64,000 nucleotides of DNA, taken from sequence record LC788708.1; one strand, written 5' to 3'. Of the stretch, positions 26,607 to 44,265 are shown piece after piece (within the stretch, counting starts at the first letter, position 1; every line of letters starts with the position of its first letter). The DNA is from Escherichia coli phage AZ21. Position numbers and translations under genes: made by a program. The notes under the pieces are model-generated. The model did no database searches and was not told the origin of the DNA. It saw only the letters and a program-made list of their open reading frames with translations.

Positions 26607-27113
26607 TTACACCTTAAATTGTTGTAAGGATTTACACATTTCAAGATCTGGGCTAAATTCTAGCATATAGCTAACAGCCATTAAATCTTGAAGATTTATC
26701 CCAGTCCTACCGTTGACTATAACTGTTGGATACTGATACATCATAGCACCAGCATCATCTAGCACACACCAATGTTTGAGCTTATGCTTTTCAACGAAGC
26801 GAAGAACAGAATTACCTCTAGATAGCCCACTCCCAGTAAAATCCGTTGTACCAAGAAAACGATCGATAAGGCCTAATCCGGTCATAATCTGAACGTTCTC
26901 CATCTCATTTTTGACAGAGAACCAAGATGATACTCCAACAATCATTATCGGAGAAGGACGAATAAAGTCCTGAAAAGCCTTGAGAAGCGGTTTGAAAACC
27001 CAGTCACTTCCAAAGAAAATCTTTTCATTATCAGGTGCATGATGGTGGGAGATGCTCGAATTGAGCACCCCATCAATATCTAGAAAAATAATTGGAGTAT
27101 TACTTATTTCCAT
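26607..27113 (-). CDS. HAD-superfamily phosphatase-like protein
   Basis: N-terminal IIFLDIDGVLN (HAD motif I DxDG) and C-terminal VLDDAG-type motif. Confidence 0.6.
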   Translation of the reverse strand: MEISNTPIIFLDIDGVLNSSISHHHAPDNEKIFFGSDWVFKPLLKAFQDFIRPSPIMIVGVSSWFSVKNEMENVQIMTGLGLIDRFLGTTDFTGSGLSRGNSVLRFVEKHKLKHWCVLDDAGAMMYQYPTVIVNGRTGINLQDLMAVSYMLEFSPDLEMCKSLQQFKV

Positions 27114-27309
27114 TTTTGTTCCTTTCTAAGAACGTATCATACTCAACCGTATCAACATATATAACACCATAGTCATCGGATTTATAGTCCATCTCCCACA
27201 GCTCACAGCGATAGCACCAACTACCATCTGCCCATACAAATATATCATCGGGATGTGTATAAACAGATTTAACTATGGACATATCTATTTCCCTTGCTTC
27301 TCGACACAT
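27100..27309 (-). CDS. Hypothetical protein
   Basis: 69-aa ORF overlapping neighbours at both ends. Confidence 0.4.
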   Translation of the reverse strand: MCREAREIDMSIVKSVYTHPDDIFVWADGSWCYRCELWEMDYKSDDYGVIYVDTVEYDTFLERNKNGNK

Positions 27310-28105
27310 AAGGTCTACCCTCTAAATGAGCTTCTACACGAGCAATAAAATCAGGGTCACTAAAAGCATCTACCGCACCTTTACTCCAGTAAGGGATACC
27401 GCGTTCTTCCAACTGGTACATCTCACTACGAGTCATACCTTGATAGCCAGGTTCTGCTGCGAGGGCACTATCATAGTAGTTAACAACCATAAGTTTCGCA
27501 GCAGTCAAATTAAGAACAGGAAATAATTCCCAGTAGAAGTTAATTACTTGGTTAGAGCAACCAACCACAATGATCATATCTTGACTGGTAATACCATCAA
27601 AAACATTATACATTTCTGCGTATGCAGGAGCACACTCCCCAAAGAAGATTACATTAGGTTTAACCCATTTATAATCATCTGGATCAATAGAATTGTATCC
27701 TACATCAATAATCCGTTTATTGCTACTATTGTAGCTATCAGCTACAACAACCTCTTTTAAATATCCGTGAATGTGCAGAATGTCACTATGTGGAACGCCA
27801 GCACGCTCAATAAGGTCATCAACGTTGGTAGTCAAGTTTACTACTTGACCTGGATATTGTTTATACCATTCACCAATACGCAAATGCGCAAGATTGGGTT
27901 CAACAGTTTTTAGCTCTTCACGACGCTTGTTGTAAAACATATGGGTTTTATGATAAAAATTACTACGAAAGGCATGAATATTACATACTTCTTCTAGATC
28001 ATAATCATCCCACAATGCTTTACCACTAGCAGTATCAGTACGGAAGGCTCGTACACCACTTTCAACACTCAAACCTGCACCACTAATAATAATTAATCTA
28101 CGCAT
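27269..28105 (-). CDS. Sir2 (sirtuin)-like NAD-binding protein
   Basis: GAGLSVESGVRAFR (sirtuin GAGxSxxSGIPxFR), TTNVDDL, HIHG (catalytic His), IFFGE, VVGCS; no zinc-ribbon cysteines seen. Confidence 0.65.
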   Translation of the reverse strand: MRRLIIISGAGLSVESGVRAFRTDTASGKALWDDYDLEEVCNIHAFRSNFYHKTHMFYNKRREELKTVEPNLAHLRIGEWYKQYPGQVVNLTTNVDDLIERAGVPHSDILHIHGYLKEVVVADSYNSSNKRIIDVGYNSIDPDDYKWVKPNVIFFGECAPAYAEMYNVFDGITSQDMIIVVGCSNQVINFYWELFPVLNLTAAKLMVVNYYDSALAAEPGYQGMTRSEMYQLEERGIPYWSKGAVDAFSDPDFIARVEAHLEGRPYVSRSKGNRYVHS

Positions 28106-40544: not shown

Positions 40545-41246
40545 ATGAAAGTAAAACCATTTGGTATGCTAGATATTGAATCTCTAGGAACTCCAGGAGA
40601 TTGTGGTACTACCCATATCGCAATGCCTTCATTCGCTTTTGTGGCTATGCATGGAATTGATAAAGACCCTGATCTAGTATTTGTTACTTTAGATGTACAA
40701 GATCAACTTAATTCTGGTGCCAAAGTTACAGCATCTACTCTAGCATTCTGGATGGATCAGGCTAAACATAGCCCGTCTGCTATCCACATTATGGAAGCTA
40801 TGAATGAGCGTAATCCAAAACTGGTTGCCTTCCAAAATGGTAAACATCATTGCACTAATAAACTTGGCTCTAACCATGCTGCCTTCTCTATGGCTCAAAA
40901 TATTATGGAGTTGGCTCTAGGCGAAAATGCTTTGTATTATGGCAATGGCCCAGAGTTTGATATGACTATCTACTCTGCAAACACTTTCCATGCTGGAACC
41001 AATGAAGAAATAGTTCCGTGGAAATTCTGGAACTTGGGTAATGTTAGATCTCTTCGTAATCTCTGGATGCAAACTGGCTATAGTTATAAAGCTCTAGAAA
41101 CCGAAGGTATTAGCTGGGCAATAGCTAAAATGGAGAAGATGGACACCATTCGTTATGGGATCTATCCGGTTAAGCACGACCCAGCATTCGATGCCCTAGT
41201 TGAGAGCTATTGTGTTGCAGCTATGATCGAAAAAATGAAAATTTGA
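40545..41246 (+). CDS. Putative DEDDh 3'-5' exonuclease (Rv2179c-like)
   Basis: N-terminal MLDIESLGT (Exo I), YGNGPEFD (Exo II), KHDPAFDAL (Exo III HxAxxD). Confidence 0.5.
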   Translation: MKVKPFGMLDIESLGTPGDCGTTHIAMPSFAFVAMHGIDKDPDLVFVTLDVQDQLNSGAKVTASTLAFWMDQAKHSPSAIHIMEAMNERNPKLVAFQNGKHHCTNKLGSNHAAFSMAQNIMELALGENALYYGNGPEFDMTIYSANTFHAGTNEEIVPWKFWNLGNVRSLRNLWMQTGYSYKALETEGISWAIAKMEKMDTIRYGIYPVKHDPAFDALVESYCVAAMIEKMKI

Positions 41247-41552: not shown

Positions 41553-42191
41553 ATGACTACTCGTATCTCTAAAACTCGCGCTCTGGCAACTATCAAATCT
41601 CTGGAAGCTAAAATCCGTAAAGCTACTGAACAACAGCTTCTGATCGCTGTTGGTGAAGGTAAGGATAAAAACCAGGTTGTAGTTGGCGCTGCAATCGAAG
41701 TAGATGCCCTGTCTACTCGTATTAAAACTGATTTCCAATCTCTGCTGGATATGATGTCTCAGCGTGATCGTATTAAATCTGCTCTGATTAAGAGCAATGC
41801 AGAAACAATCGTTGAGATTGGTTCTCGTAAGATGACTGTTGCGGAAGCAATTGAAGCTAAGCGTTCTATGGAGCTTAAAGCTCAGCTGCTGGCTAACATG
41901 CGTAAGCAGTTCCATGCCGCTACGATTAAGTTTAATACGCAGAAAGCACAGTTTGATGCTAAATATGAGCGTTTGCAGGATAGCATGGCTACCCGCGATA
42001 AGAAAACTTCCGAAGATGAAGTTAAAATGCAGCTCAATCTGCTGGAACTCAAGAATACTCCATTCTTGATTGATCCGCTGGAACTGGAGAAGCTGATTAA
42101 GCAGCATGACGAGGAATACCAGGACTTTGCAACAAATGTTGACTTTGTTCTATCCGAGTCTAACGCCTCTACCTTCATTGAAGTAGAGTAA
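41553..42191 (+). CDS. Hypothetical coiled-coil protein
   Basis: 212 aa; RBS aaggaagcaaataATG. Confidence 0.5.
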   Translation: MTTRISKTRALATIKSLEAKIRKATEQQLLIAVGEGKDKNQVVVGAAIEVDALSTRIKTDFQSLLDMMSQRDRIKSALIKSNAETIVEIGSRKMTVAEAIEAKRSMELKAQLLANMRKQFHAATIKFNTQKAQFDAKYERLQDSMATRDKKTSEDEVKMQLNLLELKNTPFLIDPLELEKLIKQHDEEYQDFATNVDFVLSESNASTFIEVE

Positions 42192-42574
42192 TAATTTAAA
42201 AGCTAGTAAATCGGTAGACGAAAGCCCAAGCATCTTACCTCGCAGCAGCGGTTGAAATACGAGGTTAAATAAGACCGCTGACCATACTATAAAGTATAAT
42301 CTATTGGAGATTATGTTTATTACACCAGCCTCTTAAGCTGACACGTAAGAACAAAGCGTCGTTGATATTACCGACACAACTTCAAAGATCAACATTTAAG
42401 TATGAAAGCTGAAAAGTTTAAAGAACTCAAACTTCTAAACTTCTAAAGCTAAAAGATGCAAAGTATTCGTTGATGATTCAAACCCTAGATCAAAGGTACA
42501 TGGCTCATAAGATATGGCCTGTGGCGCCTCTAGGCTGTTTATCGGTTTACTAGTTTCACAATTTAAAAATGTAT

Positions 42575-42603
42575 TTGCTAATTTACTAAGTTATCTGTAT
42601 AAT
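42575..42603 (+). promoter_or_regulatory. Sigma70-type early promoter
   Basis: ttgcta-17 nt-tataat-atatttttaaattgatgaaacgagg. Confidence 0.65.
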
Positions 42604-42633
42604 ATATTTTTAAATTGATGAAACGAGGCTATT

Positions 42634-42951
42634 ATGACTTTTCATATTTTGATTGATGATGTGCGTAATCTTCACGGAATGGACATTATCATTCGAACCC
42701 CAGAAGCCGCTGTAGAGTTTCTGAATAAAACTGATACCACAGGCCACTTCGTTTATATGGATAATGACTTGGCTGTAGATGGTATGGAAGGTTATCAAAT
42801 TCTTCGTTTACTCTTAGAATTTGGGCAGAGACCAAAGAAAGTGGTACTAGTAACCTCAAACCCAGTAGCTAAGCAAAATATGCGTAATGATTTGCTTGAC
42901 TTAGGGTATAAAGAAAATCCCAATCGTGTTGAATATGATTGGCAGGAGTAA
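42634..42951 (+). CDS. Stand-alone receiver (REC/CheY-like) domain protein
   Basis: 105 aa; HILIDD (beta1 acidic pair), FVYMDNDLAVDGMEG (beta3 Asp), VVLVTSNP (beta4 Thr/Ser), YKENP (beta5 Lys). Confidence 0.4.
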   Translation: MTFHILIDDVRNLHGMDIIIRTPEAAVEFLNKTDTTGHFVYMDNDLAVDGMEGYQILRLLLEFGQRPKKVVLVTSNPVAKQNMRNDLLDLGYKENPNRVEYDWQE

Positions 42952-43474: not shown

Positions 43475-43645
43475 ATGAAATCAGTTGTAATTATTGGTGT
43501 TAACACTCGCGGTATTCGTACTACGAAAACTGTTAAAACTTCTAACGTTGCTGAAATCACTACGAACCCTAAAAAGTTTGATTTCGCCAAAGTCTCAGCA
43601 GTTATGACAGAACAATCTTTTAACCAAGCATTGGGGATGAAATAA
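43475..43645 (+). CDS. Hypothetical small protein (56 aa)
   Basis: ATG 10 nt after RBS gagaggaag; stop overlaps next start (TAATG); below the ORF-track size cutoff. Confidence 0.45.
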   Translation: MKSVVIIGVNTRGIRTTKTVKTSNVAEITTNPKKFDFAKVSAVMTEQSFNQALGMK

Positions 43646-44079
43646 TGGGTGAAAATATTCTAATGACCCTTCGTGGACTGCTTAGTCTAGCACGTACCCA
43701 CGGTGATAAGGAGAGGGCACTTAATCTTCAGACCATGATTGGTGATCTGCAACGTATTGATAAAGACATTGTTACTCGAACCGAGTTCGTAGCCTATCTG
43801 AAAGCTCAGATTAAGGCTCTAGAAAATGCAAAACAACGCGCTATTAAAGTTGGTACGGAAGTTCCTACTGATGTAGACTATGAGCAACTGCTTTATTCCA
43901 TGCTGCAAGAGTATCAGCCAAGTCAACTGACTGAAGTTCAGATTCGTGAGTATTTTGCAGAACTGGTTAAATTAAACCCAGGTATTACCAAAGCTCTATT
44001 AATGAAAACTATTAAGGCAGAATTTCCTGGACGTTATGACGGTAAAACAACTGCTTTGATTGCTAGTGAATTTTTCTAA
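43645..44079 (+). CDS. Hypothetical protein
   Basis: 144-aa ORF translationally coupled to the preceding small ORF. Confidence 0.5.
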   Translation: MGENILMTLRGLLSLARTHGDKERALNLQTMIGDLQRIDKDIVTRTEFVAYLKAQIKALENAKQRAIKVGTEVPTDVDYEQLLYSMLQEYQPSQLTEVQIREYFAELVKLNPGITKALLMKTIKAEFPGRYDGKTTALIASEFF

Positions 44080-44087
44080 AAATTCAC

Positions 44088-44116
44088 TTGCTAAATGCTT
44101 ATAAATTCTATATAAT
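44088..44116 (+). promoter_or_regulatory. Sigma70-type promoter heading the tRNA island
   Basis: ttgcta-17 nt-tataat-atattcataaatt followed by inverted repeat aattagatg...catctaatt. Confidence 0.65.
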
Positions 44117-44193: not shown

Positions 44194-44265
44194 GCCGTCC
44201 TAGTATAATTGGTATTATCAAGCCGTAACTGGTGGAAGATGTAGGTTCGAATCCTACGGTCGGTA
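44194..44265 (+). tRNA. tRNA-like gene with canonical T-arm but irregular acceptor/anticodon arms (possible degenerate tRNA)
   Basis: T-arm gtagg-ttcgaat-cctac and D-loop aattgg are present; acceptor gccgtcc/ggtcggt has one U-U mismatch; best anticodon stem has only 4 bp (loop gccgtaa); no encoded CCA. Confidence 0.4.

What the first reader, a model, noticed from the sequence alone, without database searches (positions are those of the whole stretch)
42634..42951. Stand-alone receiver (CheY-like) domain protein in a phage early operon
The 105-aa product shows the spacing of receiver-domain landmarks (acidic pair after beta1 in HILIDD, Asp in YMDNDL, Thr/Ser in VVLVTSNP, Lys in YKENP) but no output domain. 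A phage-encoded orphan receiver could titrate a host histidine-kinase or phosphorelay, or bind a nucleotide second messenger.
Basis: inference. Interest (0 to 1): 0.4.

Follow-up and report, generated by a model that had tools for sequence, protein, structure and literature searches.

The report
Phage T5 cREC receiver-like protein
This small gene of a T5-like phage does encode a receiver (CheY)-like fold, but it belongs to the already catalogued phage 'cREC' family, predicted though never shown to be an enzyme that opens cyclic phosphates on damaged RNA or NAD-derived molecules, and not a signalling partner of bacterial histidine kinases.

Summary
The ORF is real: 42634..42951 (+), 105 aa, with its own T5-type promoter and under purifying selection. 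The window is a Tequintavirus (100% identical to E. coli phage AZ23), and the gene is the ortholog of T5 gene T5.084.

It matches Pfam PF20274 (cREC_REC) at 56.8 bits (cutoff 27). It fails the classical Response_reg model (12.5 bits, cutoff 30.2).

The 'Lys in YKENP' is not conserved. R11, D17 and R21 are invariant instead.

The same genome carries a Sir2 plus 'Swiss-army-knife' HAD phosphatase pair 14.5 kb away. In rV5-like phages a cREC gene sits between an RNA ligase and the orthologous Sir2.

Best reading: a catalytic, receiver-derived phosphoesterase for cyclic phosphates, either RNA 2',3'>p ends or ADP-ribose 1'',2''>p, within a dispersed phage RNA end-healing set. No experiment supports this.

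Titration of host kinases is unlikely. Orthologs already carry the cREC name in public databases, so the finding is already known and of modest interest.

The parts
42575..42603 (+). Sigma-70-type promoter-like site TTGCTA-17 nt-TATAAT directly upstream of the gene
   Evidence: Consensus scan, 10/12 matches. A promoter is annotated at the equivalent place upstream of T5.084 in AY543070. The sequence recurs at about 75-82% identity at other positions in T5-like loci, as expected of the T5 early promoter family.
42625..42628 (+). Shine-Dalgarno-like GAGG, 5 nt before the ATG
   Evidence: Read directly from the sequence.
42634..42951 (+). CDS for a 105-aa stand-alone cREC (cyclic-phosphate processing receiver) domain protein, ortholog of T5.084. 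Family-invariant residues: D8, D9 (42655-42660), R11, D17, R21, D43 and D45 (42760-42768), G53, P67, T74 and N76 (42853-42861), Y92.
   Evidence: ORF list. PF20274 at 56.8 bits, E 3.8e-15. 96% identity to T5 AAS77130. Family conservation. AF2 model pLDDT 94.5. Fold matches. pN/pS 0-0.17.
27269..28105 (-). Sir2-family protein in the same genome, 14.5 kb away on the opposite strand. Proposed functional partner; this link is inferred, not shown.
   Evidence: PF02146 at 89.1 bits, E 4.3e-25. 58% identical to the rV5-like Sir2 that lies directly downstream of a cREC gene. Co-occurs with cREC in 48 of 50 Vibrio phage records.
26607..27113 (-). HAD_SAK_2 ('Swiss Army Knife' RNA-repair HAD phosphatase) next to the Sir2 gene. 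Proposed functional partner; inferred.
   Evidence: PF18143 at 72.7 bits, E 5.2e-20. It corresponds to the SP15-type sirtuin + HAD neighbourhood described in PMC9503650. SP15 is a Tequintavirus.

Best explanation
The gene encodes a member of the cREC family (PF20274), a minimal receiver-derived domain. It keeps the phosphoryl-handling acidic pocket of receiver domains but has lost the surfaces used for two-component signalling.

Proposed mechanism (inferred):
- The pocket forms at the C-terminal ends of beta1 (D8, D9), beta3 (D43-x-D45) and beta4 (T74, N76). Invariant R11 and R21 lie in the loop that replaces alpha1 and at the end of beta2.
- This pocket binds a cyclic phosphate. [quoted passage not shown]
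- The ring is opened, probably by attack of the beta3 aspartate, with the Asp two residues downstream acting as acid/base. The DxDxT phosphatase domain of T4 Pnkp works this way.
- The resulting phosphomonoester would then go to the Sir2 and HAD 'Swiss-army-knife' phosphatase encoded elsewhere in the same phage. The cleaned end would be left for a ligase, presumably host RtcB, since no Rnl1-type ligase is found in the window.

Shown here: family membership, fold, conserved residues, early-region expression signals, and genomic associations.
Inferred only: the substrate, the chemistry and the partnership with Sir2/HAD.
For: Membership: PF20274 at 56.8 bits against a cutoff of 27. Orthologs are already named 'cyclic-phosphate processing receiver domain-containing protein' by NCBI and UniRef.

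Active-site conservation across 161 representatives of 50%-identity clusters: D8, D9, R11, D17, R21, D43, D45, G53, P67, T/S74 and N76 are each at or above 90%. All map to the strand ends and loops that make the receiver active site (topology).

Context:
- rV5-like phage: Rnl1 RNA ligase, then a 116-aa cREC (family HMM E 9e-10), then Sir2, with a divergently transcribed P-loop kinase and a metallophosphoesterase.
- A metagenomic phage contig has a T4 Rnl1-type ligase four genes upstream of cREC.
- Vibrio phage D479: tRNA cluster, Sir2, cREC and a DUF2828/Ro-like RNA-binding protein lie on one strand within 10 kb (the DUF2828 assignment is from the nt-1 homologue).
- 48 of 50 cREC-bearing Vibrio phage records also carry the Sir2.
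- This window carries Sir2 plus HAD_SAK_2, and the cREC gene lies at the edge of the tRNA gene cluster.

Published prediction: PMC7824862 and PMC9503650.

Chemical precedent: an Asp-x-Asp acylphosphatase opening RNA>p, PMC3592404.
Against: - No cREC protein has been characterised experimentally. PMC9503650 says so, and literature searches found nothing newer.
- In T5-like phages the gene is not adjacent to any RNA-repair gene. Its immediate neighbours are a SleB-like cell-wall hydrolase and proteins of unknown function.
- Its position relative to those neighbours is not conserved in phage My1.
- Most other sampled contexts show only small unknown early genes.
- No Rnl1-type RNA ligase is found in the window.
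- The co-occurrence with Sir2 rests on about four phage lineages, not on many independent events.
- Whether D43 or D45 corresponds to the phospho-acceptor Asp is ambiguous. hhalign against CheY prefers D45; the model's strand boundary prefers D43.
- The T5 clade has Q104 where most of the family has K/R, and A47 where most have G.
Confidence: 0.4

Rival explanations
1. Anti-defence enzyme or sponge. The protein degrades or sequesters a small nucleotide-derived immune or stress signal of the host (2',3'-cyclic nucleotides, cyclic ADP-ribose isomers or related ADPr derivatives, cyclic oligonucleotide breakdown products). In this reading it does not repair RNA ends.
For: - It is an early gene with its own strong promoter, among many small accessory early genes.
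- The describers of the family also list cADPr and cyclic nucleotides as candidate substrates and report Nudix fusions (PMC7824862, PMC9503650).
- Two invariant arginines plus an acidic pocket suit a nucleotide ligand.
- In T5-like phages there is no adjacent ligase.
Against: - No hit to any PADLOC defence-system model that would name a target system.
- The tightest linkages seen here are to an RNA ligase, tRNA clusters and a Ro-like RNA-binding protein, not to signal-making systems.
- No experimental data exist.
Confidence: 0.2
2. Non-catalytic adaptor or regulator. The receiver-like domain binds a ligand or a partner protein (for example the phage Sir2 or a host RNA-processing factor) and modulates it without itself breaking a bond.
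For: - Receiver folds commonly act as switches.
- The protein is tiny (105 aa) and has no second domain.
- It co-occurs with Sir2.
Against: Near-absolute conservation of five acidic or polar pocket residues and two arginines across 161 divergent sequences is more typical of catalysis. No partner interface has been identified.
Confidence: 0.15
3. One reading: an orphan CheY-like phospho-acceptor that draws phosphoryl groups from host histidine kinases or phosphorelays and so perturbs host two-component signalling.
For: - Receiver-like fold.
- The acidic residues needed for phosphorylation, and the Thr/Ser position, are retained.
- There is a weak sub-threshold match to Response_reg (12.5 bits).
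Against: - It fails the Response_reg gathering score.
- alpha1 is replaced by an 8-residue loop and alpha5 is absent. alpha1 is the principal kinase/Hpt docking element (established knowledge of HK-RR complexes).
- The family is reported never to occur with histidine kinases.
- No kinase appears in any sampled neighbourhood.
Confidence: 0.05

Closest known systems
cREC / cRec domain family (Pfam PF20274; defined by Iyer, Anantharaman, Krishnan, Burroughs and Aravind, Viruses 2021, PMC7824862; extended in PMC9503650)
   Same: Clear HMM match above threshold. Same length and stand-alone architecture. Same conserved DD ... D-x-D ... T/S-x-N signature. Phage early-gene context. The same genome encodes the sirtuin clade that the family is linked to.
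   Different: In T5-like phages the gene is not in a compact RNA-repair or NAD-processing operon. It lies 14.5 kb from the Sir2/HAD pair and next to a cell-wall hydrolase. The T5 clade has A47 and Q104 where the family mostly has G and K/R.
Classical response-regulator receiver domains (CheY, Spo0F; Pfam PF00072)
   Same: Flavodoxin-like receiver fold with parallel sheet. Acidic pair after beta1, Asp at the end of beta3, Thr/Ser at the end of beta4.
   Different: No alpha1 or alpha5, and no conserved Lys after beta5 in this clade. It has extra invariant R11, D17, R21, D45 and N76. Only 9-20% identity to receiver domains, Foldseek TM about 0.57, and below the Pfam threshold. No kinase partner is known.
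DxDxT (HAD-type) acylphosphatase domain of T4 polynucleotide kinase-phosphatase
   Same: It works-like this in the proposed model. An Asp-x-Asp motif at a strand end of a Rossmann-like fold. In T4 Pnkp the first Asp forms a phosphoaspartyl intermediate that opens RNA 2',3'>p, and the second Asp is the acid/base (PMC3592404). cREC has an invariant D43-x-D45.
2H phosphoesterases (LigT, phage Acb1-like enzymes)
   Same: Predicted to be functionally analogous: opening of 2',3'-cyclic or 1'',2''-cyclic phosphates in RNA repair and signal degradation. They occupy similar phage gene neighbourhoods (PMC9503650).
   Different: Unrelated fold and catalytic residues (two His-x-Thr/Ser motifs). The activity of 2H enzymes is demonstrated; that of cREC is not.
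rV5-like phage cassette Rnl1 - cREC - Sir2 (+ kinase, metallophosphoesterase)
   Same: It contains a cREC paralogue and a Sir2 58% identical to the one in this window.
   Different: There the genes are contiguous and include an RNA ligase and a kinase. In the T5-like genome the components are dispersed, and no Rnl1-type ligase was found in the 64-kb window.

Membership tests
cREC (PF20274) | Match to the family HMM above the curated gathering score | tested here: met
   56.8 bits against a cutoff of 27, E 3.8e-15, covering profile positions 2-86 of 88.
cREC (PF20274) | Receiver-like alpha/beta fold | tested here: met
cREC (PF20274) | Conserved catalytic aspartates shared with receiver domains | tested here: met
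   D8 159/161, D9 159/161, D43 161/161, D45 160/161.
cREC (PF20274) | Never associated with histidine kinases; phage or prophage context | tested here: met
   All 12 neighbourhoods inspected are phage-like and lack kinases. This is a small sample; the general statement is from PMC7824862.
cREC (PF20274) | Gene-neighbourhood link to RNA-repair or NAD/ADPr-processing genes | tested here: inconclusive
   Not adjacent in this window. Sir2 + HAD_SAK_2 are in the same genome, 14.5 kb away. Direct adjacency was seen only in relatives.
cREC (PF20274) | Cyclic-phosphate phosphodiesterase activity (the function that names the family) | not testable with these tools
   It is a prediction only, in the literature as well.
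Classical response-regulator receiver (PF00072, CheY-like) | Match to the Response_reg HMM above the gathering score | tested here: not met
   12.5 bits against a cutoff of 30.2, E 0.17. A PDB profile search gives response regulators only at E of about 1.
Classical response-regulator receiver (PF00072, CheY-like) | Complete (beta-alpha)5 architecture including alpha1 and alpha5 | tested here: not met
   The model has beta1 (4-7), a loop (8-17), beta2 (18-20), three helices and beta5 (100-102). There is no helix between beta1 and beta2 and none after beta5.
Classical response-regulator receiver (PF00072, CheY-like) | Conserved quintet: two acidic residues, phospho-acceptor Asp, Thr/Ser, Lys | tested here: not met
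   Four of five are present. The proposed Lys (K93) is 30/161 in the family and lies before beta5. The family's K/R after beta5 (122/161) is Q104 in this protein.
Classical response-regulator receiver (PF00072, CheY-like) | Phosphotransfer from a histidine kinase, Hpt or small-molecule phosphodonor | not testable with these tools
   Requires biochemistry.
HAD / DxDxT acylphosphatases | DxDxT/V motif at the end of the first strand, plus the further HAD motifs | tested here: not met

The most novel reading that the evidence does not exclude
cREC is a genuinely catalytic receiver domain. It would use an Asp-x-Asp acylphosphatase-like mechanism to open 2',3'-cyclic phosphates on cleaved tRNAs. In T5-like phages it would work with the distantly encoded Sir2 and HAD 'Swiss-army-knife' phosphatase as a dispersed, ligase-less end-healing pathway that hands cleaned ends to a host ligase. 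This would be a second line of protection of the translation apparatus, alongside the phage's own tRNA set.
Probability: 0.25. Interest if true: 0.6.

Novelty: already known. Interest (0 to 1): 0.28.

Why it matters
The receiver fold is the best-known bacterial signalling module. A widespread phage branch of it that has become an enzyme, or a ligand binder, would be a clear case of a switch domain recruited for virus-host conflict over RNA and NAD metabolites.

No cREC protein has been tested. T5 is a tractable model phage in E. coli K-12. Its 105-aa single-domain version, with a confident model and about ten invariant residues, is a convenient entry point for the first biochemical test.

As a genome-scan finding, however, it adds nothing new. 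The family, its name and the annotation of these very orthologs are already public.

Tried and rejected
- **PDB profile search.** TAL-effector proteins came top (E 1e-16 to 1e-8). This is an artefact of adding up 13-16 individually insignificant repeats of about 4 bits each ('LTPEQVVAIASN' against 'lPkkvvlVtsN'). Rejected.
- **Libraries with no hit.** NCBIfam. PADLOC for cREC, the rV5 cREC, Sir2, HAD_SAK and the exoribonuclease-like neighbour.
- **Literature.** Searches for T5.084, its accession numbers or any experimental cREC work found nothing relevant.
- Only a weak match (probability 6.8%). It leaves open whether D43 or D45 corresponds to the phospho-acceptor Asp.
- **The search for related loci.** The 39-sequence alignment failed for lack of a conserved stretch. 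The closer alignment returned only near-identical T5-like loci, which are uninformative for context.
- **tblastn of a T4 Rnl1-type ligase against the window.** Nothing.
- **AlphaFold-database fold search.** The library was unavailable.
- **A functional link to the downstream SleB-like hydrolase.** Considered and rejected, because the adjacency is not kept in phage My1.

Full report
**1. What is there**

The ORF is exactly as described: 42634..42951 on the + strand, ATG start, 105 aa. A GAGG ribosome-binding site lies 5 nt upstream. A TTGCTA-17-TATAAT promoter-like site lies at 42575-42603.

The window is a T5-like phage. The 3 kb around the gene is 100% identical to Escherichia coli phage AZ23 and 98% identical to many Tequintavirus genomes. 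The protein is 96% identical to T5 gene product T5.084 (AAS77130). In the T5 record that gene is an unnamed hypothetical protein of the early region, preceded by an annotated promoter.

493 phage records encode a relative. Crude pN/pS against 27 T5-like orthologs is 0-0.17. It is a genuine, constrained protein-coding gene.

**2. Family**

- Pfam assigns it to PF20274, cREC_REC ('cyclic-phosphate processing receiver domain'): 56.8 bits (cutoff 27), E 3.8e-15.
- The classical Response_reg model reaches only 12.5 bits (cutoff 30.2).
- PHROGs places it in phrog_1479, function unknown. NCBIfam has nothing.
- Near-identical proteins are already named 'cyclic-phosphate processing receiver domain-containing protein' by UniRef and NCBI and in at least one T5-like GenBank record.
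- An exhaustive profile search found 426 clusters at 50% identity (E <= 1e-3). Almost all are 90-130 aa and single-domain.
- The few longer proteins add an HNH nuclease or unassigned sequence, never a known response-regulator output domain.

**3. Structure**

With a 39-sequence alignment, AlphaFold2 gives a confident model: pLDDT 94.5, pTM 0.86.

- beta1: 4-7
- loop: 8-17
- beta2: 18-20
- helix: 23-32
- beta3: 39-42
- helix: 53-62
- beta4: 69-72
- helix: 77-89
- beta5: 100-102

Fold searches:
- Foldseek agrees but weakly (best E 3e-3, TM 0.57). No solved structure is closer, so no cREC structure appears to exist.
- Among predicted viral structures, the nearest are other proteins named cREC (TM 0.63-0.93). 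Receiver domains of giant-virus histidine kinases reach only about 0.5.

The domain is nonetheless a stripped-down receiver. The helix between beta1 and beta2 (alpha1) is replaced by an eight-residue loop, and there is no alpha5. This agrees with the Pfam Response_reg alignment, which starts only at profile position 25, and with the hhalign register against CheY.

**4. Conserved residues**

In a 161-sequence alignment of cluster representatives, the invariant or near-invariant positions are:
- D8 and D9 (159/161 each)
- R11 (153, plus 6 K)
- D17 (146)
- R21 (159)
- D43 (161)
- D45 (160)
- G53 (160)
- P67 (151)
- T/S74 (160)
- N76 (158)
- Y92 (149)

The fourth, 'Lys in YKENP' (K93), is Lys in only 30/161 sequences and lies before beta5.

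The family does tend to have K/R just after beta5 (122/161), but this protein has Q104 there. In the T5 clade R98 is nearly invariant instead.

What separates cREC from classical receivers is the second invariant Asp two residues after the beta3 Asp, the two arginines, D17 and N76. By topology all of these lie at the C-terminal strand ends and adjoining loops that form the receiver active site.

**5. Context in the window**

The gene lies between the nucleotide-metabolism block (ribonucleotide reductase, thymidylate synthase, RNase H) and the tRNA gene cluster.

- Upstream lies a 442-nt non-coding gap, preceded by the T5.085 ortholog of unknown function.
- Further upstream, the gene that T5 annotates as a 'metallopeptidase' actually matches the Rv2179c-like 3'-5' exoribonuclease family (33.9 bits).
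- Immediately downstream, 5 nt after the stop, is a signal-peptide-bearing SleB-like cell-wall hydrolase (PF07486).
- That adjacency is not conserved. In Pectobacterium phage My1 the cREC gene sits about 3 kb away, next to RNase H.
- No Rnl1-type RNA ligase is present in the window.
- A scan of 71 window ORFs found a Sir2-family protein (27269-28105, minus strand) directly next to a HAD_SAK_2 'Swiss-army-knife RNA repair' phosphatase (26607-27113).
- This is the sirtuin + HAD neighbourhood that Iyer et al. 2022 describe for phage SP15, a Tequintavirus. They interpret it as NAD-dependent clean-up of RNA ends carrying 2',3'-cyclic phosphates (PMC9503650).
- That paper does not mention the cREC gene of these phages, which lies 14.5 kb away on the other strand.

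**6. Context in relatives**

- rV5-like phages: the gene order is Rnl1 RNA ligase, a 116-aa protein that my family HMM recognises as cREC (E 9e-10), then a Sir2 58% identical to the one in this window. A P-loop kinase and a metallophosphoesterase are transcribed divergently.
- A metagenomic phage contig has a T4 Rnl1-type ligase four genes upstream of cREC.
- KVP40-like Vibrio phages: 48 of the 50 records with cREC also carry the Sir2. The two exceptions are truncated records.
- In most of these phages the two genes are about 100 kb apart. In the divergent phage D479, a tRNA cluster, Sir2, cREC and a Ro-like (DUF2828) RNA-binding protein lie on one strand within 10 kb.
- Other sampled contexts show only small unknown early genes, with recurrent metallophosphoesterase and SprT-like genes.
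- No histidine kinase was seen in any neighbourhood.

These associations support a link to RNA (tRNA) end processing and to one sirtuin clade. They come from only about four lineages and are not corrected for shared ancestry.

**7. Interpretation**

Family membership is secure. Function is not. The family's authors predicted a phosphoesterase for 2',3'-cyclic RNA ends or cyclic ADP-ribose derivatives, and state that it remains uncharacterised. I found nothing newer.

| Reading | Confidence |
|---|---|
| Cyclic-phosphate-opening enzyme in a dispersed phage RNA end-healing set (cREC + Sir2 + HAD_SAK, ligation left to the host) | about 0.4 |
| Degradation or sequestration of a nucleotide-derived host signal | about 0.2 |
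| Non-catalytic adaptor | about 0.15 |

The kinase-titration model ranks last for three reasons: the kinase-docking helix and the conserved Lys are missing, the Response_reg model is not matched, and the family never accompanies kinases.

**8. Novelty and score**

But the family, its predicted role and the annotation of these orthologs are already public. The only small addition here is that T5-like phages combine the SP15-type Sir2/HAD pair with a distantly encoded cREC.

Interest is modest (0.28). The value lies in T5 being a convenient system for the first biochemical test of the family.

**9. Side observation**

The 383-nt non-coding stretch upstream of the cREC promoter (42192-42574) is unexpectedly well conserved and well folded. 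Details are under 'noticed in passing'.

Noticed in passing
window 42192-42574 (+), core about 42200-42556: The non-coding gap between the T5.085 ortholog and the cREC promoter looks like a conserved structured element.
- It folds far better than shuffles: MFE -98.2 against -72.4 +/- 4.6 kcal/mol, z -5.6, 0 of 100 shuffles as good.
- Across 25 T5-like loci it is 93.5-99.8% identical, with at most 5 gapped positions over 442 nt. In the most divergent loci it is better conserved than the adjacent cREC ORF, which is about 88-89% identical there.
- RNAalifold gives a 20-bp long-range closing stem. There are two compensatory pairs (AU to GC in 4 sequences, CG to AU in 6), several wobble-compatible changes and almost no broken pairs.
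- It contains an 8-bp hairpin followed by ACCA, and a GGCGCC site at 42523-42528.
- There is no ORF of 40 aa or more and no Rfam match. It is unannotated in T5.

It may be an undescribed stable RNA, an RNase III-type processing site or a DNA-level element.
   Followed up: partly
window 26607-28105 (-): A Sir2-family gene (27269-28105) lies adjacent to a HAD_SAK_2 'Swiss-army-knife' RNA-repair phosphatase gene (26607-27113). This is the SP15-type sirtuin system predicted to act in NAD-dependent RNA end repair. The phage Sir2 clade occurs in 999 phage records.
   Followed up: partly
window 40545-41246 (+): The ortholog of T5.087 is annotated in T5 and many relatives as 'putative metallopeptidase'. 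It matches the Rv2179c-like 3'-5' exoribonuclease family above threshold (PF16473, 33.9 bits against 27), so the usual annotation is probably wrong.
   Followed up: no
window 44194-44265 (+): Rfam reports a tRNA-like match (35.5 bits, gathering score 29) that ARAGORN does not call. It lies just downstream of a second TTGCTA-17-TATAAT promoter (44088-44116), in the region T5 annotates as 'RNAX, stable RNA with unknown functions'. Some relatives label it tRNA-OTHER.
   Followed up: no
window 41553-42191 (+) and 43645-44079 (+): Database names for neighbouring genes look unreliable. The T5.085 ortholog is called 'tail fiber protein' in several records although it lies in the early region and has no Pfam match. 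The T5.081 ortholog is variously called tRNA amidotransferase or recombination exonuclease, on the strength of a sub-threshold YqeY-like match (18.2 bits against 27).
   Followed up: no
L041 (Vibrio phage D479, OZ195776.1 206500-217500): One-strand arrangement within about 10 kb: tRNA cluster, Sir2, seven small ORFs, cREC, three ORFs, then a Ro-like (DUF2828/DUF7788) 'RNA-binding protein'. In the related phages nt-1 and KVP40 the Sir2 and cREC genes are about 100 kb apart.
   Followed up: partly
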